From a bacterium (GTDB lineage Bacteria; Patescibacteriota; Minisyncoccia; Phycocordibacterales; UBA2100), in assembly GCA_016789445.1 (NCBI GenBank), contig JAEUQT010000001.1, positions 1,308 to 65,307 on the forward strand: a DNA stretch of 64,000 nt, read 5' to 3'. Both the position numbers and the translations under genes were made by a program. The notes below the pieces were generated by a model. The model ran no database searches, was not told the origin of the DNA, and worked only from the letters and a program-made list of their open reading frames with translations. Shown here one piece after another: positions 4,466-62,054 of the stretch (its first letter is position 1; every line of letters begins with the position of its first letter).

Positions 4466-4624
4466 GCTCGGTCACGGATAATTTCCTCGCCGACGCTCGG
4501 GAATTTCCGCGACCCCGGCTCGCGGTCCTGCCTGCTAGCGGGACATCGCTCCGCCTTTCGAGTCTCTCACAGACAGCGCATTGGCGCTGTCTTTTCCGGC
4601 ACCGCTTTCGCGATGCTCAATCGG
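4466..4624 (-). repeat. Type-A composite structured repeat, immediately downstream of tRNA-Leu(CAA)
   Basis: Contains GACTCGAAAGGCGGAGCGATGT...CCGCGAGCCGGGGTCGCGGAAATT...ATTATCCGTGACCGAGC and the hairpin GACAGCGCcaatGCGCTGTC. It is near-identical in architecture to 19041-19196. Confidence 0.75.
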
Positions 4625-7530: not shown

Positions 7531-7672
7531 GGTCACAACTCTCACTCTCGCCGTAGCTCGAGTTCGGTCGCGACCCCGCCTCGTCCGTTTCGCCTACTGG
7601 CGAAACATACCTCCGGCTCCCGCAAAAGCACAAAGACAGCACGCAGGTGCTGTCTTGTGTGTATTTTGCGGG
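7531..7672 (-). repeat. Type-A structured repeat (reverse orientation) in the 3' region of the AOX-like gene
   Basis: Reverse complement reads CAAAA-ACACACAAGACAGCACctgcGTGCTGTCTTTGTGCTTTTG...ATGTTTCGCCagtagGCGAAAC-GGACGAGGCGGGGTCGCGACC...GTGACC. The same modules occur at 19684-19890. Confidence 0.7.
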
Positions 7673-16125: not shown

Positions 16126-16273
16126 CGTGCGCAGCAGCGCACGGGCGGAGGGGGTCGGGGAACCGCCATCGGTTCCCCGTGTCGGAGAGCAGGGCGGCGA
16201 GCGAAGCGCTGCCGTCCGTTGAGAACCGAGGGTTCTCAAAACGAACCGCCGGACTGGCCGGACGGTTCGTTTC
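16126..16273 (+). repeat. Type-B structured repeat (copy B2) in the divergent intergenic region upstream of infB
   Basis: GTGCGCagcagCGCAC hairpin, then GGAGGGGGTCGGGGAACCgccatcGGTTCCCC-GTGTCGGAGAGCAGGGCGGCGAGCGAAGCGCTGCCGTCCG-TTGAGAACCgaggGTTCTCAAAA. Confidence 0.75.
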
Positions 16274-16315: not shown

Positions 16316-17809
16316 ATGTCCTCCGCTTCTACCACAACCGAACGTCCGCCAATCGTAGCCGTTCTCGGTCACGTCGATCACGGTAAGTCGACGCTGCTCG
16401 ACTACATCCGCAAGGCCAACACCGTCGCCAAGGAAGCAGGCGGCATCACCCAGCACGTCGCTGCCTACGAGGTCGTCCACGAGCGTGAGGGCAAGCTCAA
16501 GAAGATCACCTTTATCGATACGCCGGGCCATGCGGCATTCCAGGCTATCCGCGCACGCGGTGCGAAGATCGCCGACATCGCCATCCTCGTCGTCGCGGCG
16601 GATGACGGCGTGAAGGCACAGACCCTCGAAGCACTGGAGAGCATCAAGGCATCGAACACGCCGTTCGTTGTCGCTATCAACAAGATCGACAAGCCGAACG
16701 CGGATATGAGCCGCACACAGGCATCGCTTTTGGAGAATCACGTCTATCTCGAGAAGCTCGGCGGGGATATCCCATGGACAGCAATCTCCGCAAAGAGCGG
16801 TCAGGGCGTCGATGAACTCCTTGATCTCATCCTTCTCGTCGCCGAACTCTCTGAATTCAAAGCAGATCCGGATGTTCTTGCAAAAGGCTACGTCGTCGAA
16901 GCGCATCGCGATGAGAAGCGCGGCATCGCGGCAACACTCATCATCACCGAAGGCACGCTCTCGAGCGGTCAGGCGGTGCGCGCTGGCCGCGCGGTCGTTC
17001 CGGTCCGCATCATGACCGACCACAACGGGAAAGCGATCAAGGAAGCGACGTTCTCCTCTCCGGTCACGCTCTACGGTTTCGACGAACTTCCGGAAGTCGG
17101 TTCCGAATTCGTCACGTACAAGAAGAAAGGCGAAGCGGAAGCTGATAAGCCGGAAGTCGTCCGCGCTGCAAACGTCCTCGCCGAAGAAGAATCCTCGAAG
17201 TTCTTCCTCCCCGTCATCATCCGCGCCGACGTCACGGGCTCGCTTGAAGGCATCCAGCATGAACTCGCGAAGATCGGCGACGAATTCACCGGCATCCGCA
17301 TCGTACAGACCGGTATCGGCGCGGTTTCCGAAGCAGATGTGAAGGCGGCGATCGCAAGCGCCGCGACTCCCGCCGTCATCGTCGGTTTTGATGTACCGGT
17401 AGATGCGACGGCACGCGAGAGTGCGCGCCAGCACAACGTCCGCATCGAAACCTACGACATCATCTACAAACTCGCTGAGAGCCTCACCGAGATCCTCAAG
17501 GAAAGCGCCCCGAAGCGCCAGGTCGAGGAATCGATCGGTAAAGCACGCATCCTCAAGCTCTTCTCGAGCGGCAAGGGCAAGCAGACCCTCGGCGGCACCG
17601 TCTTCGAGGGCCGCTTCGAGAAGCGCACGAGCGTACGCGTCACCCGCAAGGGCGAGGAGATCGGCATCGGCTGGGTTGATAGCCTCCAGTCGCACCGCCA
17701 GAGCGCGGAACGCATCGAGACCGGCAGTGAATTCGGTGCCGAGATCGAGGCGGAGTTTGATCTCGCCCAAGGAGACGTGTTAGAAAGCTTCCGTACCAAA
17801 ACCGTATGA
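16316..17809 (+). CDS. infB: Translation initiation factor IF-2 (short form lacking the long N-terminal region)
   Basis: G-domain VAVLGHVDHGKSTLLD...FIDTPGHAAF...INKIDK, then IF2 domains II to IV. 497 aa. Confidence 0.9.
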   Translation: MSSASTTTERPPIVAVLGHVDHGKSTLLDYIRKANTVAKEAGGITQHVAAYEVVHEREGKLKKITFIDTPGHAAFQAIRARGAKIADIAILVVAADDGVKAQTLEALESIKASNTPFVVAINKIDKPNADMSRTQASLLENHVYLEKLGGDIPWTAISAKSGQGVDELLDLILLVAELSEFKADPDVLAKGYVVEAHRDEKRGIAATLIITEGTLSSGQAVRAGRAVVPVRIMTDHNGKAIKEATFSSPVTLYGFDELPEVGSEFVTYKKKGEAEADKPEVVRAANVLAEEESSKFFLPVIIRADVTGSLEGIQHELAKIGDEFTGIRIVQTGIGAVSEADVKAAIASAATPAVIVGFDVPVDATARESARQHNVRIETYDIIYKLAESLTEILKESAPKRQVEESIGKARILKLFSSGKGKQTLGGTVFEGRFEKRTSVRVTRKGEEIGIGWVDSLQSHRQSAERIETGSEFGAEIEAEFDLAQGDVLESFRTKTV

Positions 17810-18135
17810 TGAACGAATCACGCCGTCAGAATAAGGTCGCCGAAGAGATCGCGCACCGCGCGGGCGAATTCCTCGCACGCAGCATCAAGGCAGGCGGCTC
17901 GCTCGTTACCGTCACCCATGCAGATATCGCACCGGATCTGAAGAACGTCACCATCTTCGTATCCGTCCTCCCGAAATCGCACGAAGAGGAAATGCTGGTG
18001 AGCCTGAAGCGTCTGCGCACCGATTTCCATGATTTCCTGAAGTCGAAGACGGTGCTGCGCAACGTCCCGACGGTCGATTTCGCGATCGATTTCGGCGAAG
18101 CGAATCGTCAGCGAATCGACGAACTGACGCGCTAA
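17806..18135 (+). CDS. rbfA: Ribosome-binding factor A
   Basis: Directly follows infB in canonical synteny. 109-aa KH-like RbfA pattern (RRQNKVAEEIAHRAGEF...VTVTHADIAPDLKNVTIFVSVL). Confidence 0.8.
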   Translation: MMNESRRQNKVAEEIAHRAGEFLARSIKAGGSLVTVTHADIAPDLKNVTIFVSVLPKSHEEEMLVSLKRLRTDFHDFLKSKTVLRNVPTVDFAIDFGEANRQRIDELTR

Positions 18136-18160
18136 AGACCGCGTGCTATATTAGCGCAAC

Positions 18161-18195
18161 GGCCACGTGGTGAAGGGGTACGAGTCTGCACAATC
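18161..18195 (+). pseudogene. Partial 5' copy of tRNA-Cys (pseudo-tRNA fragment)
   Basis: GGCCACGTGGTGAAGGGGTA-C-GAGTCTGCAcaatc matches the first ~40 nt of the intact tRNA-Cys 83 nt downstream, with a 6-nt deletion. It has no 3' half. Confidence 0.7.
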
Positions 18196-18243
18196 TTCTC
18201 CTTTGTCTTACCGCGTGAGTCGTAGATAAAACTGTTTTCTAAA

Positions 18244-18316
18244 GGCCACGTGGTGAAGGGGTAACACGGGAGTCTGCAAAACTCTTACTGCGCGGGTTCG
18301 AGTCCCGCCGTGGCCT
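18244..18316 (+). tRNA. tRNA-Cys (anticodon GCA)
   Basis: Acceptor GGCCACG/CGTGGCC, anticodon loop CTGCAAA, T-arm GCGGGTTCGAGTCCCGC, discriminator U73 typical of tRNA-Cys. Confidence 0.85.
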
Positions 18317-18372
18317 CCGTTTTTGCAAAACCGCTACTGGATGGGTGAGACGGGGTTGGGGCCCCGTCGCAA

Positions 18373-18436
18373 GGCCGGAGACGCTCGGCGTCGAGGCGGG
18401 GTCGCGGAAATTTTCAGCAGAAAATTATCCGTGACC
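18373..18436 (+). repeat. Type-A structured repeat (minimal module)
   Basis: GGCCGGAGacgcTCGGcgtCGAGGCGGGGTCGCGGAAATTTTCagcaGAAAATTATCCGTGACC. Confidence 0.75.
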
Positions 18437-18503
18437 AACTCCACCGCCTCCCCAACCATACAATTGACTAATCCTCATCCTCATTGCAGGATTCCCCTAT
18501 CCT

Positions 18504-18935
18504 ATGAAAAAAGGCTTCACCGCGGGCGCATTCGACCTCTGCCATGCAGGTCATTTCCTCATGTTTGAGGAGGCAAAATCCCAGTGCGATTACCTCATCG
18601 TCGGCCTCCATACCGACCCGACACTCGACCGACCGGACACCAAGAACAAGCCGATCATGTCGGTCGAGGAGCGCATGATCATCCTCAAGGGCATCAAGTA
18701 CATCGACGAGGTCGTCACCTACGAGACCGAGGCGGATCTCTACAATATCCTCAAGGAGAACAAACTCGGCATCAATATCCGCATCCTCGGTGTCGAATAC
18801 AAGGACAAACCGTACACCGGTCGCGACCTCCCTCTTGAGGTCTACTACAACACCCGCGGCCATAACTTCTCGACGACTGAATTACGCAACCGCGTGTACG
18901 AGGCAGAGAAGGCAAAGCGCGAGAAGGCGGCCTAG
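18504..18935 (+). CDS. Cytidylyltransferase-family protein (glycerol-3-phosphate cytidylyltransferase TagD-like)
   Basis: FDLCHAGH nucleotidyltransferase motif. 143 aa and collinear with TagD. Confidence 0.8.
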   Translation: MKKGFTAGAFDLCHAGHFLMFEEAKSQCDYLIVGLHTDPTLDRPDTKNKPIMSVEERMIILKGIKYIDEVVTYETEADLYNILKENKLGINIRILGVEYKDKPYTGRDLPLEVYYNTRGHNFSTTELRNRVYEAEKAKREKAA

Positions 18936-18956
18936 TCCGTGATATAAATCTCGTAC

Positions 18957-19037
18957 GCCGGGGTGGCGGAATGGTTTACGCAGACGACTTAAAATCGTTC
19001 ACCGAAAGGTTTGTGGGTTCGAGTCCCACCCCCGGCA
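18957..19037 (+). tRNA. tRNA-Leu (anticodon TAA)
   Basis: Acceptor GCCGGGG/CCCCGGC, D-arm GCGGAATGGTTTACGC, anticodon loop CTTAAAA, long variable arm, T-arm GTGGGTTCGAGTCCCAC. Confidence 0.85.
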
Positions 19038-19040
19038 CAG

Positions 19041-19196
19041 ATTGAGCAGAGCGAAGCTGTGTCGGGGAGAACAGTGCCGACGCACTGTTCGGGTGGGACT
19101 CGAAAGGCGGAGCGATGTTTCGTCAGCAGACGAAACCGCGAGCCGGGGTCGCGAAAAAGTCTGCACGACGGTGCAGACTTTATTCGTGACCGAGCC
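19041..19196 (+). repeat. Type-A composite structured repeat, immediately downstream of tRNA-Leu(TAA)
   Basis: GATTGAGCA...GTGTCGGGGAGAACAGTGCcgacGCACTGTTcggg-GACTCGAAAGGCGGAGCGATGTTTCGTCagcagACGAAACCGCGAGCCGGGGTCGCGAAAAAGTCTGCACgacgGTGCAGACTTTATTCGTGACCGAGCC. Confidence 0.8.
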
Positions 19197-19683
19197 AAAC
19201 GGAATCAAAACGAGCTCTTTGCCGAGTCCTTCTCCCGGCAGCGAAAATTGTTTACACAAGATTCTTGAATCGCTCTTTCAGGAGTCGATATCTACGAATC
19301 GTATCGGGTTGCGAAAGAACACGCCCACTGTCTCTCTCTTCTCCTTCAAGTTGTTGAAACGTGAGGTCTGAATATTGGTCCTTTGTAAAATCAATCTGCG
19401 TTCCGTCTGCGAGAGCGTTCCAGTAATGTGAGCGCAAATGCGCATATTTAGATATATGTGCCAGTGAACCGCACATCAACTTACCACCCAAGTATTCCTG
19501 CGCTAAAACAGAAGCAACTGCACAATGTCCCCACAATGGATTGTGTTCTGTCCAATGTTTCGGATCTGCAGATGTGTCGCGCTGCGCGACATTTCTCAGT
19601 ATTCGTGAGAATGTGTCTCGATCGACTGTCATATCTAGCACTAATTAGCTTGATAATATCATTCCTTATCTTCACGGATATTT
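19197..19683. other. Low-GC islet between tRNA-Leu(TAA) and tRNA-Lys, flanked by type-A repeats
   Basis: GC visibly about 45% versus about 60% for flanking DNA. One hypothetical gene (19252-19641). Confidence 0.5.
19252..19641 (-). CDS. Hypothetical protein in a lower-GC islet between tRNA-Leu(TAA) and tRNA-Lys
   Basis: 129-aa ORF. The local GC (~45%) is clearly below the window average. Confidence 0.5.
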   Translation of the reverse strand: MLDMTVDRDTFSRILRNVAQRDTSADPKHWTEHNPLWGHCAVASVLAQEYLGGKLMCGSLAHISKYAHLRSHYWNALADGTQIDFTKDQYSDLTFQQLEGEERDSGRVLSQPDTIRRYRLLKERFKNLV

Positions 19684-19890
19684 CTTGCCCGACGGTGCAA
19701 TAAATTCCGCGACCCCGACTCGCCGCTCCGGCAGCTGCCGGAACATCGCTGCGGCTCGGACGAGTCCTCAAAGATAATGTTCTCGCCGTCGCTCGAAAAT
19801 TTCCCCGAGCCTGGCTCGCGGTTTTGCGTGCTCGCAAAACATCGCTCCGCCTCGGACAAAAGCACAAAACCTCCCACAGGGGAGGTTGTT
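19684..19890 (-). repeat. Tandem type-A structured repeat modules immediately downstream of tRNA-Lys
   Basis: Reverse complement reads CAAAAGACACAACAACCTCCCctgtGGGAGGTTTTGTGCTTTTG-TCCGAGGCGGAGCGATGTTTTGCGagcacGCAAAACCGCGAGCC...ATTATC...GAGCCGCAGCGATGTTCCGGCagctGCCGGAG...GTCGGGGTCGCGGAATTTATTGCACC. Confidence 0.75.
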
Positions 19891-19963
19891 GTGTCTTTTG
19901 TCCGCCCAGTAGGGATCGAACCTACGACCTGCCGATTAAGAGTCGGATGCTCTACCAGCTGAG
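19891..19963 (-). tRNA. tRNA-Lys (anticodon CTT)
   Basis: Reverse complement reads CCGCCTA-TA-GCTCAGCTGGTAGAGC-A-TCCGACTCTTAATCGGC-AGGTC-GTAGGTTCGATCCCTAC-TGGGCGG-A, with anticodon loop cuCTTaa and a C1:G72 first pair. Confidence 0.8.
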
Positions 19964-20065
19964 CTATAGGCGGATTGCCGATAATATACCATGTCTCATC
20001 AAATTGTCAGCTCTATAACAAAGAAACCAGGACCGAAAGGTCCTGGTTAGTAGATAGGGAGATGA

Positions 20066-29603: not shown

Positions 29604-29619
29604 TAGTTGAGCTTCGCAA

Positions 29620-29683
29620 GGCCGGAGGCGCTTGGCGCCGAGGCGGGGTCGCGCAAAATCGCAGTAGCGATTTATGCGTGACA
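29620..29683 (+). repeat. Type-A structured repeat (minimal module) after rpsA
   Basis: GGCCGGAGGCGCttgGCGCCGAGGCGGGGTCGCGCAAAATCGCagtaGCGATTTATGCGTGAC. Confidence 0.75.
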
Positions 29684-44830: not shown

Positions 44831-44920
44831 TTGGCGGAGAGGGAGAGATTCGAACTCTCGAGACCGTTTCCAGTCTGCCGCATTTCGAGTGCGGTGCTTT
44901 CGACCACTCAGCCACCTCTC
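44831..44920 (-). tRNA. tRNA-Ser (anticodon CGA), CCA encoded
   Basis: Reverse complement reads GGAGAGG-TG-GCTGAGTGGTCGAAAGC-A-CCGCACTCGAAATGCGG-long variable arm-GAGAGTTCGAATCTCTC-CCTCTCC-G-CCA. Confidence 0.85.
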
Positions 44921-45069
44921 CAAGTCGATTGTGCGTTTTGCACGTTTAATCCTCGAGCACGTGCGGAGTTCGCTTCCTCCTGAAATCGGTGCGCCGAATT
45001 TCAATCGGCTCACATCGATTTCTCCTCGCGGAGCTCGGACCGGATGAAAAGCCGTCAACGGCATTTCAT

Positions 45070-45087
45070 CCACTCAGCCACCTCTCC
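45070..45087 (-). pseudogene. Partial 5' copy of tRNA-Ser (first 18 nt) followed by a strong hairpin
   Basis: Reverse complement reads GGAGAGGTGGCTGAGTGG, then GGATGAAATGCCGTTGACGGCTTTTCATCC. It lies 150 nt upstream of the intact tRNA-Ser on the same strand. Confidence 0.65.
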
Positions 45088-45357
45088 AGTCGGGCAGATA
45101 GTACCAGAATTAGCCCTTTTTGGCACGCTGAGCCTTGGTTTCTGCCTCTCGCTCAGCGACGTCATTAGCAAGCACTCGGGCAAGGGTCTGGCGCAGCTCA
45201 GCACGAGCCTTTTCGGGCAATTCGGAGGTATGCTCGCCTTCAGGGCGAGGAGTATGTGCGGGGAACTTCTCCACGCCGATAAGGATAGCATGCACGAGGA
45301 CACGAAAAGGACCACCCCTTCAAGTTTTGGGGAAAATGCGCTATATTGGCCCCCGTA

Positions 45358-48349: not shown

Positions 48350-48488
48350 ATATATTGAAGATTCTACCGCTTTGGACTATACTGCGCCACACGATTCCTA
48401 GGGGAATCAAGCTTAGCGCGCTTAGCTCCGGCGGATGACGCTGATATGCCAGGCTGGGCGAGCACGAGACTGAAAGTGAGAAAATAAC

Positions 48489-48560
48489 GCGCGCTTAGCT
48501 CAGTGGTAGAGCATCGTCTTGACGTGACGAGGGCCGTGGGTTCGATCCCCTCAGCGCGCA
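48489..48560 (+). tRNA. tRNA-Val (anticodon GAC)
   Basis: GCGCGCT-TA-GCTCAGTGGTAGAGC-A-TCGTCTTGACGTGACGA-GGGCC-GTGGGTTCGATCCCCTC-AGCGCGC-A, with one U-U mismatch in the T-stem. Confidence 0.7.
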
Positions 48561-48605
48561 CATGAGACACAAAACCTGCCCTGCGGCAGGTTTTGTGCCA
48601 TGTGC

Positions 48606-48762
48606 GAGCCGGAGCGATGTTCCGCCAGCAGGCGGAACCGCGAGGCCGGGTCGGGCGGCAGTTTGCGCGACGGCGCAAGCTGAATGCCTGACCACACATG
48701 AAAGACCGGCGAGACGGGGTCGCGAAAAAATTCGCCTGACGAGGCGGATTTTATTCGTGACC
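48606..48762 (+). repeat. Two tandem type-A structured repeat modules downstream of tRNA-Val
   Basis: GAGCCGGAGCGATGTTCCGCCagcagGCGGAACCGCGAGGCCGGGTCGGGCGG..., then GAGACGGGGTCGCGAAAAAATTCGCCtgacgAGGCGGATTTTATTCGTGACCGATCC. A 15-bp direct repeat TGAATGCCTGACCAC at 48681 and 48818 brackets the second module. Confidence 0.75.
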
Positions 48763-48844
48763 GATCCTTTCTGCTCCATCGCGACGGCGACGGGAATCTC
48801 TGTGACCACTGAGAATTTGAATGCCTGACCACGAGCAACTCTTT

Positions 48845-55681: not shown

Positions 55682-55803
55682 CAGAATCTCCGAAAGGTTC
55701 CGGAGATTCTTTGAGAACCCTCGGTTCTCAACGGGCTATTTCGCTTCGCTCATAGCCCTGCTCTCCTACACGGGAAAACTACAGTTTTCCCGCCCCCTTT
55801 CGG
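55682..55803 (-). repeat. Type-B structured repeat (copy B3) abutting the 5' end of tRNA-Phe
   Basis: Reverse complement reads GGGGGCGGGAAAACtgtagGTTTTCCC-GTGTAGGAGAGCAGGGCTATgagcgaagcgaaATAGCCCG-TTGAGAACCgaggGTTCTCAAAGAATCTCCggaacctttcGGAGATTCTG. Confidence 0.75.
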
Positions 55804-59891: not shown

Positions 59892-59990
59892 ATCACGCAT
59901 AAATCGCTGGTGCGATTTTGCGTGACCCCGCCTCGCAGCCGAGCTGCTCCGGCCTTGCGACGGGGTCCCAACCCCGCCTCACCTCTGCGT
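59892..59990 (-). repeat. Type-A structured repeat (reverse orientation) downstream of lepA
   Basis: GTCACGCATAAATCGCtggtGCGATTTTGCGTGACCCCGCCTCGCAGCcgagCTGCTCCGGCC is the reverse complement of the consensus seen at 29620-29683, with a compensatory loop change. Confidence 0.75.
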
Positions 59991-60077: not shown

Positions 60078-61865
60078 TTACTCTTCACCACCTTTCACGA
60101 CTTTCAGGAAAACATCGTGCGGGATGTCCACCTTGCCGCGCGCGAGCATGCGCTTCTTACCCTTCTTCTGCTTCTCGAGAAGCTTCATCTTGCGGGTGAT
60201 ATCTCCCCCGTAGAGGTAGCCGGTGACATCCTTGCGCATCGCACTCTTGCGGCGCGAAGCGACGATATGGCCATCGGATTTCGCTTGGATCTTGAGCTCG
60301 AACAACTGCTTCGGGAGCAGCTTCTCGAGCTTCTCGACGAGCGACTCCGCTTCGGTACGCACACGACGCTTCGAGACGATTCGTGCAAAGGCGGGAACCA
60401 ATTCGTCCGCAACCAGCACATCGAGACGGACGACATCGGCGGTGCGCAGACCCAACAGTTCGTATGAAAGCGACGCAAAACCGGAAGAGACGCTCTTCAG
60501 GCGGTCGAAGAATCCGCGCATCAACTCACGAAGCGGCATCTCAGCGGAGAGCTTGATCTTGCCGTCGGCCAAGGTCTCGGTCTCACCCACTACGGCTTCG
60601 TGATCGAAAAGGATCTGGGTGATGCCCCCGATATATTCAGACGGCGTGATGAGCGAGATAGCCGCCCATGGCTCACGCACCGATTTGAGCGTTCCATCGT
60701 CCGGGAAACGCGCGGGATTATAGATCTCTTCCACGCCGGTGTTCGTGGTGATCTCGTAGACCGTCGTCGGCATCGTGACGACGAGCGGGAGACTGAATTC
60801 GCGCTTCAAGCGCTCGACGATGATTTCCAAGTGGAGCATGCCGAGGAATCCGCAGCGGAATCCCTTGCCCATGACGCCGCTTGATTCTTCTTCGTAGGAG
60901 AGCGACGAATCCGAAAGTCGCAATCGTTCCAATGCTTGGCGCAACTGCACGAGATCATCTTGGGATTCCGGATACACCGATGCCCAGATGACCGGCGCCG
61001 GCTGGCGGTACCCGCCGAGTGATTCCGCCGACATACGTGCGGCGACCAACGTATCGCCGACACTCGCGATACCCGGCTTCTTGATACCGGTGACGATGTA
61101 TCCGATCTCTCCTTCACTGAGGCTCGCCCGCGGTTCTTCGTCCGGAGAGAGGATGCCGACTTCAAGCGCCGTGAATGTCGCGTTCGCCGCAGCGAGTTTC
61201 AAAGAGTCCCCCTTCGCGACGCTTCCGCCGAAAAGGCGGCAATAGATGATGACGCCGCGATGATCGGAGTACGAGAAATCATAGATGAGCGCCTGCATCT
61301 TGTCTCCTGTCGCCTGTGGTGGCGGTACACGCTTCACCACGGCATCAAGCAGCTCTTTGACGCCGAGACCCGTCTTTCCTGATGTCGCCAGGATCTCGCT
61401 CTCATCGCAATTCAGAAGCAGAGCGATCTCGCTCTTCACATCATCGACGCGCGCATGCGGCGCATCGATCTTGTTCACTACGGGGATGATCACACGATTG
61501 AGCTCTCGGGCCGTCGAAAGGACGGAGAGCGTCTGCGCTTCGATGCCCTGCGTCGCATCGACGAGAAGCACGACGCCCTCGACTGCGGAGAGCGCACGCG
61601 AGACTTCGTAGGCGAAGTCGACGTGACCCGGCGTATCGATGAGATTGAGTACGTACTCGGAGCCGTCCACCTTCCAGTTCATGCGGACCGGCTGCATCTT
61701 GATGGTGATACCGCGCTCGCGCTCAAGATCCATACGATCAAGGACCTGCGCCTTCATCTGGCGCTTCTCGATGGTGCCCGTGAGCTCGAGCATGCGGTCG
61801 GCCAGGGTCGATTTCCCGTGGTCGATGTGCGCTATGATCGAAAAGTTTCTGATATGTGAAGACAT
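60078..61865 (-). CDS. lepA: Elongation factor 4 (LepA)
   Basis: MSSHIRNFSIIAHIDHGKSTLADRMLELTG, G-domain, EF-G-like domains and the LepA C-terminal domain. 595 aa. Confidence 0.95.
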   Translation of the reverse strand: MSSHIRNFSIIAHIDHGKSTLADRMLELTGTIEKRQMKAQVLDRMDLERERGITIKMQPVRMNWKVDGSEYVLNLIDTPGHVDFAYEVSRALSAVEGVVLLVDATQGIEAQTLSVLSTARELNRVIIPVVNKIDAPHARVDDVKSEIALLLNCDESEILATSGKTGLGVKELLDAVVKRVPPPQATGDKMQALIYDFSYSDHRGVIIYCRLFGGSVAKGDSLKLAAANATFTALEVGILSPDEEPRASLSEGEIGYIVTGIKKPGIASVGDTLVAARMSAESLGGYRQPAPVIWASVYPESQDDLVQLRQALERLRLSDSSLSYEEESSGVMGKGFRCGFLGMLHLEIIVERLKREFSLPLVVTMPTTVYEITTNTGVEEIYNPARFPDDGTLKSVREPWAAISLITPSEYIGGITQILFDHEAVVGETETLADGKIKLSAEMPLRELMRGFFDRLKSVSSGFASLSYELLGLRTADVVRLDVLVADELVPAFARIVSKRRVRTEAESLVEKLEKLLPKQLFELKIQAKSDGHIVASRRKSAMRKDVTGYLYGGDITRKMKLLEKQKKGKKRMLARGKVDIPHDVFLKVVKGGEE

Positions 61866-61915
61866 ACATTACGCAGTGTACAGAAGCATGGACTTGAGAG
61901 CGCACATTGTTCGAA

Positions 61916-62003
61916 AGGGGTCGGGAAAACTGTAGTTTTCCCGTGGAGGAAGGCAGGCCGCTGTGCGGCCGTTGGAAACCGTGGGTTTCCAAGGAGCCGT
62001 GGT
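61916..62003 (+). repeat. Type-B structured repeat (copy B4) inserted between the lepA start and a duplicated lepA 5' fragment
   Basis: GAAAGGGGTCGGGAAAACtgtagGTTTTCCC-GTGGAGGAAGGCAGGCCGCtgtGCGGCC-GTTGGAAACCgtggGTTTCCAAGG. Confidence 0.75.
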
Positions 62004-62018
62004 TGCGGCGACGATGGG

Positions 62019-62054
62019 TGCAATGATCGAAAAGTTGCGGATGTGGCTGGACAC
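62019..62054 (-). pseudogene. Duplicated, diverged 5' fragment of lepA (12 codons, GTG start) fused in frame to repeat B4
   Basis: GTGTCCAGCCACATCCGCAACTTTTCGATCATTGCA encodes MSSHIRNFSIIA, identical to the LepA N-terminus, with 9 synonymous nucleotide differences from the current gene. The frame then reads through repeat B4 to a stop at 61869. Confidence 0.65.

What the first reader, a model, noticed from the sequence alone, without database searches (positions are those of the whole stretch)
18161..18316. Partial 5' copy of tRNA-Cys directly upstream of the intact tRNA-Cys
The first ~35 nt of tRNA-Cys, covering the acceptor 5' strand, D-arm and anticodon stem-loop up to the anticodon, are repeated 83 nt upstream. 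The copy has a 6-nt deletion and no 3' half. Each copy is preceded by its own -10-like box (TATATT; TAGATAAAA). Elements that integrate into tRNA genes usually leave 3'-end duplicates, so a 5'-half duplicate is unusual. The tRNA-Ser fragment (next finding) and the lepA 5' fragment fit the same pattern, which suggests recombination events that target 5' ends of genes in this genome.
Basis: seen in the sequence. Interest (0 to 1): 0.65.

Follow-up and report, generated by a model that had tools for sequence, protein, structure and literature searches.

The report
Stump of a replaced tRNA-Cys gene
The partial tRNA-Cys copy is real: it is the leftover start of the original gene, still next to the original promoter, after DNA carrying a whole tRNA-Cys gene was inserted into it, a pattern that recurs in this bacterial group and in relatives holds a small nuclease gene.

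Summary
Window 18161-18197 repeats nt 1-43 of the intact tRNA-Cys (18244-18317), 83 nt upstream. The first 20 nt are identical; the rest has three small deletions. No tRNA finder calls it. It is identical in six independent metagenome assemblies.

The window comes from a Patescibacteria (Paceibacterota/Kaiserbacteria-like) genome. In relatives without the fragment, one tRNA-Cys sits 8-10 nt after the same extended -10 promoter behind rbfA. So the fragment is the stump of the ancestral gene, and the working gene now lies downstream with no comparable promoter of its own. Just 3' of the intact gene lies a 3' remnant of a different tRNA-Cys allele.

A simple tandem duplication is not supported. 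A tyrosine-integrase att scar does not fit.

The same layout occurs at tRNA-Ser and tRNA-Val in this window and in at least eight other Patescibacteria loci. In several, an 80-aa GIY-YIG nuclease gene lies between stump and tRNA. 23 of 120 homologues of that nuclease read straight into tRNA-Cys.

My best reading is an ORF-less relic of such an insertion-with-replacement. The nuclease link is inferred for this window, not shown. No published description was found. Interest is moderate.

The parts
17806..18135 (+). rbfA (ribosome-binding factor A), the upstream anchor gene. infB lies before it at 16316-17809.
   Evidence: Pfam RBFA at E 9e-16, and IF-2 domains on the preceding ORF. The order infB-rbfA-tRNA-Cys-tRNA-Leu(taa) is conserved across Paceibacterota loci.
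18124..18152 (+). Ancestral tRNA-Cys promoter. It has a -35-like CTGACG and an extended -10, TGCTATATT (18144-18152), which ends 8 nt before the stub.
   Evidence: It is the only sigma-70-like site found in 17900-19100. The same TGnTATAnT box lies 8-10 nt before the single intact tRNA-Cys in L001, L102, L107, L115 and L121. It also lies before tRNA-Lys, Leu-tag, Glu and Leu-taa of this window.
18161..18197 (+). 5' stub of tRNA-Cys. Nt 1-20 are exact (18161-18180). A decayed tail follows (18181-18197) that matches the anticodon arm up to about tRNA nt 43, with deletions of 3, 2 and 1 nt.
   Evidence: It is not called as a tRNA. It is identical in six independent assemblies.
18198..18243 (+). 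46-nt spacer with no ORF and no other copy in the window.
   Evidence: Its only similarity to the region upstream of the stub is one 8-mer, ACCGCGTG (p = 0.04). It has no other copy in the window or in unrelated loci.
18244..18317 (+). Intact tRNA-Cys(GCA), with discriminator U and no encoded CCA. This is the working gene, displaced 83 nt from the promoter.
   Evidence: ARAGORN and Rfam tRNA at 59.4 bits. No extended -10 box lies at the usual 8-10 nt before it.
18318..18323 (+). 6-nt junction, CGTTTT, between the intact gene and the 3' remnant.
   Evidence: Read from the sequence. In L112 the same tRNA is followed by different DNA.
18324..18347 (+). 3' remnant of a second tRNA-Cys allele, the type that is the working gene in L088, L121 and L122. 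It runs from the anticodon loop to the start of the T stem: TGCAAAACCGCTACTGGATGGGTG.
   Evidence: It matches the tRNA-Cys of L088 and L090 at 23 of 24 bases, with the first 18 exact. The un-rearranged relative L121 has that allele at this place, behind the same promoter.
18344..18436 (+). Copy of a dispersed, hairpin-rich intergenic repeat that cuts off the 3' remnant.
   Evidence: Other copies lie at 59983-59893(-) and 29614-29682(+), and a weaker one at 4522-4470(-). In relatives such repeats sit at the tRNA-Cys 3' end, flanked by a repeat of GGCCTC. The repeat also explains why four independent contigs end at 18372.
18504..18935 (+). Cytidylyltransferase gene (tagD-like), the downstream anchor. 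It is preceded by a TTGACT box at 18464.
   Evidence: Pfam CTP_transf_like at E 1e-14. Relatives L088, L115, L121 and L122 share this gene and its upstream box.

Best explanation
The fragment is the stump of the original tRNA-Cys gene.

**Origin.** The gene originally began 8 nt after an extended -10 promoter just behind rbfA. A stretch of DNA ending in a complete tRNA-Cys gene was then inserted into the old gene near nt 43, the 3' strand of the anticodon stem. The stump kept the promoter. The working gene now lies 83 nt downstream. It is most likely transcribed from the stump's promoter as one precursor, with the tRNA 5' end then cut out by RNase P. This transcription step is inferred.

**More than one round.** A 3' remnant of another tRNA-Cys allele lies just after the working gene. 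So the locus was rebuilt more than once, or by one insertion followed by correction of the stump against the new gene.

**Class.** The layout is promoter, 5' stub of about 41-43 nt, insert, intact tRNA, and sometimes a 3' remnant. It is a recurrent class in Patescibacteria. In other members the insert is an 80-aa GIY-YIG nuclease gene that abuts or reads into the tRNA and so uses the tRNA promoter. I take the window copy to be an ORF-less relic of that kind of insertion-with-replacement.

**Maintenance.** In the sister lineage the first roughly 20 nt of the stub stay identical to the working gene while the flanks drift. That points to gene conversion from the gene, or to selection on the stub.
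For: **Shown**
1. Ancestral position. L121 has the same promoter string, GCAGCGTGCTATATTAGCGCAAC, joined directly to a single tRNA-Cys. L115, L102, L107 and L001 do likewise.
2. Promoter logic. Other tRNAs of this genome have TGnTATAnT 8-10 nt before nt 1. For Cys and Ser this box faces the stub, not the intact gene.
3. No support for tandem duplication. The spacers do not resemble the DNA upstream of the stubs (p = 0.04, 0.45, 0.65 and 0.78).
4. A 3' remnant of another allele lies at 18324-18347 (23 of 24 bases).
5. Recurrence. In 252 tRNAs of 115 sequences, every 5' stub found starts at tRNA nt 1, upstream and in the same orientation. These are window Cys, Ser and Val, and L088, L005, L001, L027 and L070. 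L122, L123 and L126 also have one.
6. A GIY-YIG ORF (Pfam E 1e-14 to 1e-16) lies between stub and intact tRNA-Ser in L027, L070 and L018. One lies between rbfA and tRNA-Cys in L025 and L070. L025 has a 5' stub of nt 1-41, then the ORF, the intact tRNA-Cys and a 3' remnant starting at nt 28.
7. Blind test. A homologue chosen only from the hit list (P0302, 69% identity) sits in the same layout: promoter, stub of nt 1-41 of the host's own tRNA-Cys, ORF, intact tRNA-Cys.
8. 23 of 120 homologues end in G-x-V/I-A-K-W/R. That is the translation of tRNA-Cys nt 1-18.
9. Between L088 and L122 the stub is 21/21 conserved. The homologous spacer is 65% identical and the upstream 40 nt are 50% identical.

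**Inferred**
- The window copy once held, or was made by, such a nuclease element.
- The stub and the gene are co-transcribed.
Against: - No GIY-YIG ORF or recognisable remnant lies in the 46-nt spacer. tblastn finds none anywhere in the 64-kb window.
- No close relative (RbfA or TagD at least 89% identical) was found with an ORF between stub and gene.
- The window spacer has no significant similarity to the spacers of L088, L122 or L005 (p = 0.11-0.34). Common descent of these modules is therefore unproven.
- The stub is of the same allele as the new gene, not of the allele whose 3' remnant lies downstream. One simple insertion therefore does not explain everything.
- The 80-aa protein is only a catalytic domain, closest to UPF0213 and SLX1. 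It has no DNA-binding domain, and site-specific cleavage is untested.
- The stub tail match (18181-18197) is short and gapped.
Confidence: 0.5

Rival explanations
1. Homology-facilitated illegitimate recombination with DNA taken up from related strains, with no dedicated element. A foreign piece carrying its own upstream DNA plus a tRNA-Cys gene was anchored by the conserved tRNA or downstream sequence. Its other end was joined illegitimately inside the resident gene, which left the resident 5' part as a stub.
For: - The lepA case fits well. The intact lepA start differs from its stub at many synonymous sites (AGC/TCA, CGC/AGA), as expected for a diverged donor.
- The gene between tRNA-Cys and tRNA-Leu differs between close relatives: galU in L102 and L107, tagD in the window and L088.
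- tRNA-Cys is inverted in L113, L114, L003 and L090.
- The DNA right after the tRNA differs between the window and L112.
- The spacers are unrelated to local DNA.
Against: - It does not explain why independent cases break the tRNA-Cys gene at about the same place (nt 41-43 in the window, L025 and L128).
- It does not explain why a GIY-YIG gene so often fills the gap.
- It does not explain why the stub is kept identical to the gene while the flanks diverge.
Confidence: 0.2
2. Local tandem duplication of promoter plus tRNA 5' part, by slippage or template switching, followed by decay. This would be a purely mutational relic with no incoming DNA.
For: - The copies are only 83 nt apart and in direct orientation.
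- An 8-mer, ACCGCGTG, occurs both upstream of the stub and in the spacer (p = 0.04).
- L027 has two successive stubs.
Against: - A tandem duplication would make the spacer a copy of the DNA upstream of the stub. That is not seen in any of four cases, even though the first 20 nt of the stub are still perfect.
- It does not explain the 3' remnant of another allele.
- It does not explain why no usual promoter box faces the intact gene.
Confidence: 0.1
3. The stub is a functional part of the tRNA-Cys precursor or a small RNA of its own. For example, it could be a leader that pairs with the tRNA 3' acceptor strand or with the spacer to control processing, kept by selection.
For: - The stub is 21/21 conserved between L088 and L122 while the flanks are 50-65% identical.
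- Stubs always keep nt 1 next to the promoter.
- Hairpins follow many stubs, and some stub-plus-spacer folds are more stable than shuffles (z = -2.3, -3.7 and -4.6).
Against: - Close relatives do well without it (L121, L115, L102, L107).
- The window's own stub plus spacer is not unusually stable (z = -1.5).
- Spacers are not conserved between modules.
- Gene conversion from the adjacent gene explains the conservation equally well.
- No Rfam family matches.
Confidence: 0.1
4. Attachment-site scar of a tyrosine-integrase element (prophage or island) that integrated into tRNA-Cys and was later lost.
For: tRNA genes are the classic integration sites, and partial tRNA copies are their usual scars (PMC9897764). 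The anticodon arm is duplicated on both sides of the intact gene (stub to nt 43, 3' remnant from nt 33), as a crossover in an anticodon-arm identity segment would give.
Against: - The repeat is the 5' part, not the 3' part.
- Only 46 nt lie between the repeats.
- No integrase or recombinase ORF was found among the ORFs scanned between 11352 and 22308.
- Clean excision would remove the duplication rather than leave it.
Confidence: 0.05

Closest known systems
Free-standing GIY-YIG homing endonuclease genes that travel with part of their target gene. Examples are phage T4 SegB in the tRNA gene cluster (PMC2330249, PMC13096335) and, from my own knowledge, mobile GIY-YIG ORFs in fungal mitochondria that bring a replacement gene end and leave the resident end as a pseudogene.
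   Same: In relatives, a small GIY-YIG ORF sits beside a tRNA gene and is flanked by a partial copy of that gene. The gene stays intact because a replacement copy comes with the insert. Close relatives differ in presence or absence.
   Different: The window has no ORF. The Patescibacteria protein is an 80-aa catalytic domain only (UPF0213/SLX1-like), with no DNA-binding domain. The duplicated part is the 5' 40 nt of a tRNA, and the insert takes over the tRNA promoter. Cleavage specificity is untested. Nothing was found in viral contigs.
att-site partial tRNA copies left by integrative elements (Reiter 1989 and Williams 2002, as cited in PMC9897764)
   Same: There is a direct repeat of part of a tRNA gene next to an intact copy. 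The intact gene is preserved despite insertion into it.
   Different: Those scars are 3' parts separated by kilobases that include an integrase gene. Here the 5' part is repeated and only 46 nt separate the copies. No integrase is present.
[quoted passage not shown]
   Same: The host phylum is the same, tRNA genes are the targets of selfish insertions, and the anticodon-arm region is a preferred site.
   Different: No intron is present. The gene is not split and spliced, but replaced by a second complete copy. No group I intron family matched in the Rfam scan.
Homology-facilitated illegitimate recombination during natural transformation (from my own knowledge: de Vries and Wackernagel 2002; Prudhomme et al. 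2002)
   Same: It gives a mosaic locus with one homologous and one illegitimate junction, and foreign DNA next to a conserved anchor.
   Different: It predicts scattered junction positions and no associated nuclease gene. Here the junctions recur near nt 41-43 of tRNA-Cys.

Membership tests
Functional tRNA gene (second tRNA-Cys copy) | A complete cloverleaf scored by tRNA finders | tested here: not met
   ARAGORN calls only 18244-18318. Rfam tRNA gives no hit on 18161-18243 even at E <= 10. There is no 3' half.
Tandem duplication | The DNA between the copies is a copy of the DNA upstream of the first copy | tested here: not met
   Spacer against upstream 80 nt gives only an 8-mer (p = 0.04). 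The three other stubs give p = 0.45-0.78.
Tyrosine-integrase att scar | The repeat is the 3' part of the tRNA | tested here: not met
   The repeat covers tRNA nt 1 to about 43.
Tyrosine-integrase att scar | An integrase gene lies between or next to the repeats | tested here: not met
   The spacer is 46 nt with no ORF. Pfam scans of the larger ORFs between 11352 and 22308 show no integrase or recombinase.
Free-standing GIY-YIG endonuclease cassette | A GIY-YIG ORF lies between the partial and the intact target copy | tested here: not met
   None is in the window (tblastn). The feature is met in relatives L025, L027, L070, L018 and L128-L137.
Free-standing GIY-YIG endonuclease cassette | The same architecture as ORF-bearing members: promoter, 5' stub ending near nt 41-43, intact gene, 3' remnant | tested here: met
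   The window stub ends at about nt 43 and its 3' remnant starts at nt 33. The L025 stub covers nt 1-41 and its remnant starts at nt 28. The L128 stub covers nt 1-41.
Free-standing GIY-YIG endonuclease cassette | Site-specific cleavage of the ORF-less allele | not testable with these tools
   This needs enzyme assays. The protein is a bare catalytic domain, closest to UPF0213 and SLX1.
Free-standing GIY-YIG endonuclease cassette | Presence or absence differs among close relatives | tested here: inconclusive
   Stubs are present in the window, L112, L088 and L122. They are absent in L121 and L115, which have the same flanks. No ORF-bearing allele was found in this clade.
Miniature transposable element with target duplication | Several copies of the inserted sequence in the genome | tested here: not met
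   The 46-nt spacer has no other copy in the window or in unrelated loci.
Group I intron in a tRNA gene | An intron RNA fold between two gene halves that join into one tRNA | tested here: not met
   No intron family appears in the Rfam scans. The stub and the 3' remnant are of different alleles and would not pair.

The most novel reading that the evidence does not exclude
Patescibacteria tRNA genes may be colonised by an undescribed family of minimal (about 80 aa) UPF0213/SLX1-like GIY-YIG nuclease cassettes.

The cassettes would insert either near nt 41-43 of the tRNA (5' type) or at its 3' end (3' type). They place their ORF under the tRNA promoter, so the ORF abuts or even reads into the tRNA. 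They bring or rebuild an intact tRNA, and they leave a stub whose first roughly 20 nt are kept identical to the host gene.

On this reading the window holds three ORF-less derivatives, at tRNA-Cys, tRNA-Ser and tRNA-Val. Its hairpin-rich repeats at tRNA 3' ends would be the non-autonomous 3'-type counterparts.
Probability: 0.35. Interest if true: 0.75.

Novelty: new variant of a known kind. Interest (0 to 1): 0.5.

Why it matters
- **Annotation.** 5' tRNA stubs in these small genomes are scars that mark the ancestral gene start. They should not be called genes or assembly errors.
- **Expression.** In this genome tRNA promoters sit 8-10 nt before the mature 5' end, so transcripts have almost no leader. 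A stub turns that into an 83-166-nt leader, and the gene then depends on 5' processing.
- **Evolution.** If the nuclease link holds, single-copy essential tRNA genes of Patescibacteria are targets of a selfish element that survives by bringing its own replacement gene and borrowing the tRNA promoter. That would add a DNA-level counterpart to the introns already known in this phylum. It would also help explain why tRNA neighbourhoods are rearrangement hot spots here, with inversions, gene swaps and repeat insertions.
- **A possible tool.** The perfect conservation of the stub next to drifting flanks would be a compact natural case for measuring short-tract gene conversion.

Tried and rejected
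1. **Second functional tRNA.** Rejected.
2. **Assembly artefact.** Rejected. The structure is identical in six independent assemblies.
3. **Tandem duplication.** The spacers do not match the DNA upstream of the stubs.
4. **Common origin of the window spacer and the L088, L122 or L005 spacers.** Not significant (p = 0.11-0.34). L088 against L122 is significant.
5. **Spacer as a dispersed repeat.** It has no other copies.
6. **My first reading of window 18441-18456 as the T-loop and acceptor end of the old tRNA.** Withdrawn. Relatives show it is the end of the dispersed repeat plus a short repeat of the tRNA 3' end, GGCCTC(C).
7. **My first reading of the L088 spacer start as a decayed anticodon arm.** It is better described as a conserved hairpin followed by a decayed anticodon and variable region.
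8. **Remnant of a GIY-YIG ORF in the 46-nt spacer.** Nothing recognisable in any frame. tblastn of the window is negative. The spacer is too short to decide.
9. **GIY-YIG cassette on viral contigs.** None found.
10. **The junction CGTTTT|TGCAAAAC as a palindromic fill-in signature.** Near-palindromic only, and not pursued.
11. **Literature.** Four searches found no description of GIY-YIG genes in Patescibacteria tRNA genes. The library is incomplete, so this is weak evidence of novelty.
12. **Exact-match look-up of the window's TagD protein.** It returned nothing, although the homologue search lists a 100%-identical NCBI protein (P0121) on a 328-kb contig.

Full report
**1. What is there**

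The window comes from a Patescibacteria genome. Its IF-2 is at most 70% identical to any species representative, and the best matches are Paceibacterota and Kaiserbacteria-like MAGs. The RbfA and TagD homologues carry the same names.

The local gene order is infB (16316-17809), rbfA (17806-18135), tRNA-Cys, a tagD-like cytidylyltransferase (18504-18935) and tRNA-Leu(taa).

Between rbfA and the intact tRNA-Cys (18244-18317) the sequence reads as follows:
- TGCTATATT (18144-18152), then 8 nt
- GGCCACGTGGTGAAGGGGTA (18161-18180), an exact copy of tRNA nt 1-20
- CGAGTCTGCACAATCTT (18181-18197), the anticodon arm with three small deletions
- a 46-nt spacer (18198-18243)

The alignment scores 52. 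The best of 19,822 random pieces of the window scores 27. Neither ARAGORN nor Rfam sees a tRNA in the upstream copy.

The structure is base-for-base the same in six independent metagenome assemblies. It recurs with one substitution in L112 and in the window-like L119. It is real.

**2. The stub marks the ancestral gene start**

Relatives without a stub have one tRNA-Cys directly behind rbfA, 8-10 nt after an extended -10 box. These are L001, L102 and L107 and, most tellingly, L121 and L115.

L121 carries the same promoter string as the window, GCAGCGTGCTATATTAGCGCAAC, fused to a single tRNA-Cys. Like the window, it has tagD downstream.

Other tRNA genes of the window (Lys, Leu-tag, Glu, Leu-taa) show the same box 8-10 nt before nt 1. 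Transcripts therefore have almost no leader.

For Cys, and also for Ser, this box faces the stub. No comparable box precedes the intact gene. The intact gene has been displaced, and it is probably transcribed through the stub. That last point is an inference.

**3. A second scar**

Right after the intact gene come CGTTTT and then TGCAAAACCGCTACTGGATGGGTG (18324-18347). This matches, at 23 of 24 bases, the anticodon-loop to T-stem part of a different tRNA-Cys allele. That allele is the working gene in L088, L121 and L122.

The remnant is cut off by a dispersed hairpin-rich repeat (18344-18436), which has other copies in the window. So the locus reads: promoter, 5' stub, spacer, intact gene, 3' remnant of another allele.

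The stub is of the same allele as the intact gene. A single simple insertion therefore does not explain everything. Either two events occurred, or the stub was corrected against the new gene.

**4. What it is not**

- *Tandem duplication.* This predicts that the spacer copies the DNA upstream of the stub. It does not, for Cys or for three other stubs.
- *Integrase att scar.* This predicts a 3' repeat, kilobases of element and an integrase gene. None of these is present.
- *Dispersed repeat.* The spacer has no other copies.

**5. The pattern recurs**

I scanned 252 tRNA genes in 115 sequences for exact partial copies of at least 13 nt within 400 nt.

- Every 5'-part copy starts at tRNA nt 1, lies upstream and has the same orientation.
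- The cases are window Cys (83 nt), Ser (166 nt) and Val (73 nt), plus L088 Cys, L005 Cys, L001 Leu-taa, L027 Ser-gct (twice) and L070 Ser-gct.
- L122, L123 and L126 carry the L088-type stub.
- A separate class of 3'-end copies lies 115-180 nt downstream of tRNAs in L094, L096, L010, L012 and L025.

**6. What fills the gap in other members**

In L027, L070 and L018 an 80-81-aa GIY-YIG ORF lies between the stub and the intact tRNA-Ser(gct) (Pfam E 1e-14 to 1e-16).

In L025 and L070 such an ORF lies between rbfA and tRNA-Cys, the same place as the window's stub. Its stop codon falls inside the tRNA.

L025 shows the full architecture:
- promoter
- stub of tRNA nt 1-41, with small hairpin inserts at 11/12 and 34/35
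- ORF
- intact tRNA-Cys
- 3' remnant from nt 28 to the end

As a blind test I took a homologue from the hit list, P0302 (69% identical). In its contigs I found a promoter, a stub of nt 1-41 of that host's own tRNA-Cys with inserts at the same two positions, the ORF and then the intact tRNA-Cys.

Independently, 23 of 120 homologues end in G-x-V/I-A-K-W/R. That is the translation of tRNA-Cys nt 1-18.

3'-type arrangements also exist: tRNA, then ORF, then 3' stub, in L017 and L024.

The protein is a bare catalytic domain. Its closest solved relatives are UPF0213 proteins and the SLX1 nuclease domain.

**7. Link to the window**

The window stub ends at about nt 43 and its 3' remnant starts at nt 33. 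The ORF-bearing loci break at nt 41 and nt 28. The promoter logic is the same.

What is missing is the ORF. The spacer is 46 nt, and tblastn finds no GIY-YIG anywhere in the 64 kb. No close relative with an ORF was found.

The assignment to the nuclease-cassette class therefore rests on architecture only. I put it at roughly even odds. Plain homology-facilitated illegitimate recombination is the main rival. The lepA stub (62018-62054) fits that rival better, because its new 5' end differs at many synonymous sites.

**8. The stub is not drifting freely**

L088 and L122 share one module, and their spacer homology has p < 1e-4. Their coding DNA is 72-77% identical, the spacer 65% and the upstream 40 nt 50%. 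The 21-nt stub is 21/21 identical and equals the tRNA 5' end.

At the spacer's rate, 21 unchanged bases have a probability of about 1e-4. Either the adjacent gene keeps converting the stub, or the stub is under selection. Possible reasons for selection are a role as the first transcribed bases of the promoter or as a homology arm.

For the window's own module no such pair of diverged relatives is available.

**9. Verdict**

- The feature is a relic, the stump of a replaced tRNA-Cys gene. It is of a recurrent, apparently undescribed Patescibacteria class that is often associated with a minimal GIY-YIG nuclease gene.
- Four literature searches found no description. The nearest known cases are T4 SegB (PMC2330249), integrative-element tRNA fragments (PMC9897764) and group I introns in Patescibacteria tRNAs (PMC13011429).

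Noticed in passing
window 45042-45106 (- strand), upstream of tRNA-Ser(cga) 44832-44921: The layout is the same as at tRNA-Cys. An extended -10, TGGTACTAT (45098-45106), is followed 10 nt later by a 5' stub, GGAGAGGTGGCTGAGTGG. Next comes a strong hairpin, GGATGAAATGCCG..CGGCTTTTCATCC (45042-45071), and the rest of a 147-nt spacer, then the intact gene. Stub plus spacer folds with z = -4.6. Stubs of tRNA-Ser(gct) in L027 and L070 also carry a palindrome in the D loop.
   Followed up: partly
window 48416-48428, 73 nt upstream of tRNA-Val 48489-48561: An exact 13-nt copy of tRNA-Val nt 1-13, GCGCGCTTAGCTC, in the same orientation. A promoter-like TGGACTATACT lies at 48373-48383, 32 nt before the stub.
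   Followed up: partly
window 61827-62054 (- strand), lepA start: A 37-nt copy of the lepA start, GTGTCCAGCCACATCCGCAACTTTTCGATCATTGCAC, lies about 190 nt upstream of the real start (ATG at 61865). The two differ at many synonymous sites (AGC/TCA, CGC/AGA), so the present 5' end looks imported from a diverged relative. The spacer holds a dispersed repeat (61912-61957, similar to 55757-55802, and also present in L113).
   Followed up: partly
window 4466-4622, 19039-19195, 19672-19899, 48562-48767, 7546-7634, 18344-18436, 29614-29682, 59893-59983, 55699-55802, 16173-16253: A family or families of hairpin-rich dispersed repeats, most copies lying directly 3' of tRNA genes (Leu-caa, Leu-taa, Lys, Val, Cys). 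In relatives L121, L115 and L122 the copy after tRNA-Cys is flanked by a repeat of the tRNA 3' end, GGCCTC. L088 lacks the repeat. The copies look like small non-autonomous insertions at tRNA 3' ends.
   Followed up: partly
window: upstream of tRNA-Lys 19973, Leu-tag 20444, Glu 45358, Leu-taa 18957: These tRNA genes have an extended -10 box (TGnTATAnT) ending 8-10 nt before the mature 5' end. Primary transcripts would therefore have almost no 5' leader.
   Followed up: partly
L113 673-748, L114 712-786, L003 5873-5945, L090 725-798: In these relatives tRNA-Cys lies inverted between rbfA and the next gene. The gene between tRNA-Cys and tRNA-Leu is galU in some close relatives and tagD in the window, L088 and L121. 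In the window tRNA-Lys (19900-19973) is also inverted relative to L088. The neighbourhood is a rearrangement hot spot.
   Followed up: partly
L094 2345-3700 and L096 2345-3000: In L094, four consecutive tRNA genes (Cys, Leu, Lys, Leu) are each followed 122-151 nt downstream by a 14-22-nt repeat of their own 3' end. L096 shows the same for Cys and Leu. This would fit a small element that inserts at tRNA 3' ends.
   Followed up: no
L017 6800-7101 and L024 7286-7650: A GIY-YIG ORF lies immediately 3' of a tRNA: Gly-gcc in L017, where the start codon overlaps the CCA end, and Arg-cct in L024. GC-rich hairpins and a partial repeat of the tRNA 3' end follow. This is the mirror image of the 5' type.
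   Followed up: partly
L025 5820-6290 and L128 560-700: A double hairpin of about 31 nt (TCATGCCTTCGGCAGATCTCCCGAAGGGAGA and variants) is inserted at the same two positions of tRNA-Cys stubs (11/12 and 34/35) in two distant genomes. The stems differ by paired changes. It also sits in the 3' remnant of L025. Its nature is unknown.
   Followed up: no
L116 1-1201 and L118 1282-1730: L116 and L118 carry a TagD 95% identical to the window's. In L116, tagD is preceded by a Peptidase_S24 gene and a PemK-toxin gene instead of rbfA and tRNA-Cys. In L118 a zinc-ribbon recombinase-like ORF lies downstream. Larger mobile DNA may also use this neighbourhood, or the dispersed repeat may confuse these assemblies.
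   Followed up: no
L005 5833-5920: A distant relative (IF-2 45% identical, low G+C) also has an 18-nt tRNA-Cys 5' stub behind rbfA. Its start-to-start spacing is 83 nt, the same as in the window. The spacers are not alike (p = 0.34), so this may be coincidence.
   Followed up: partly
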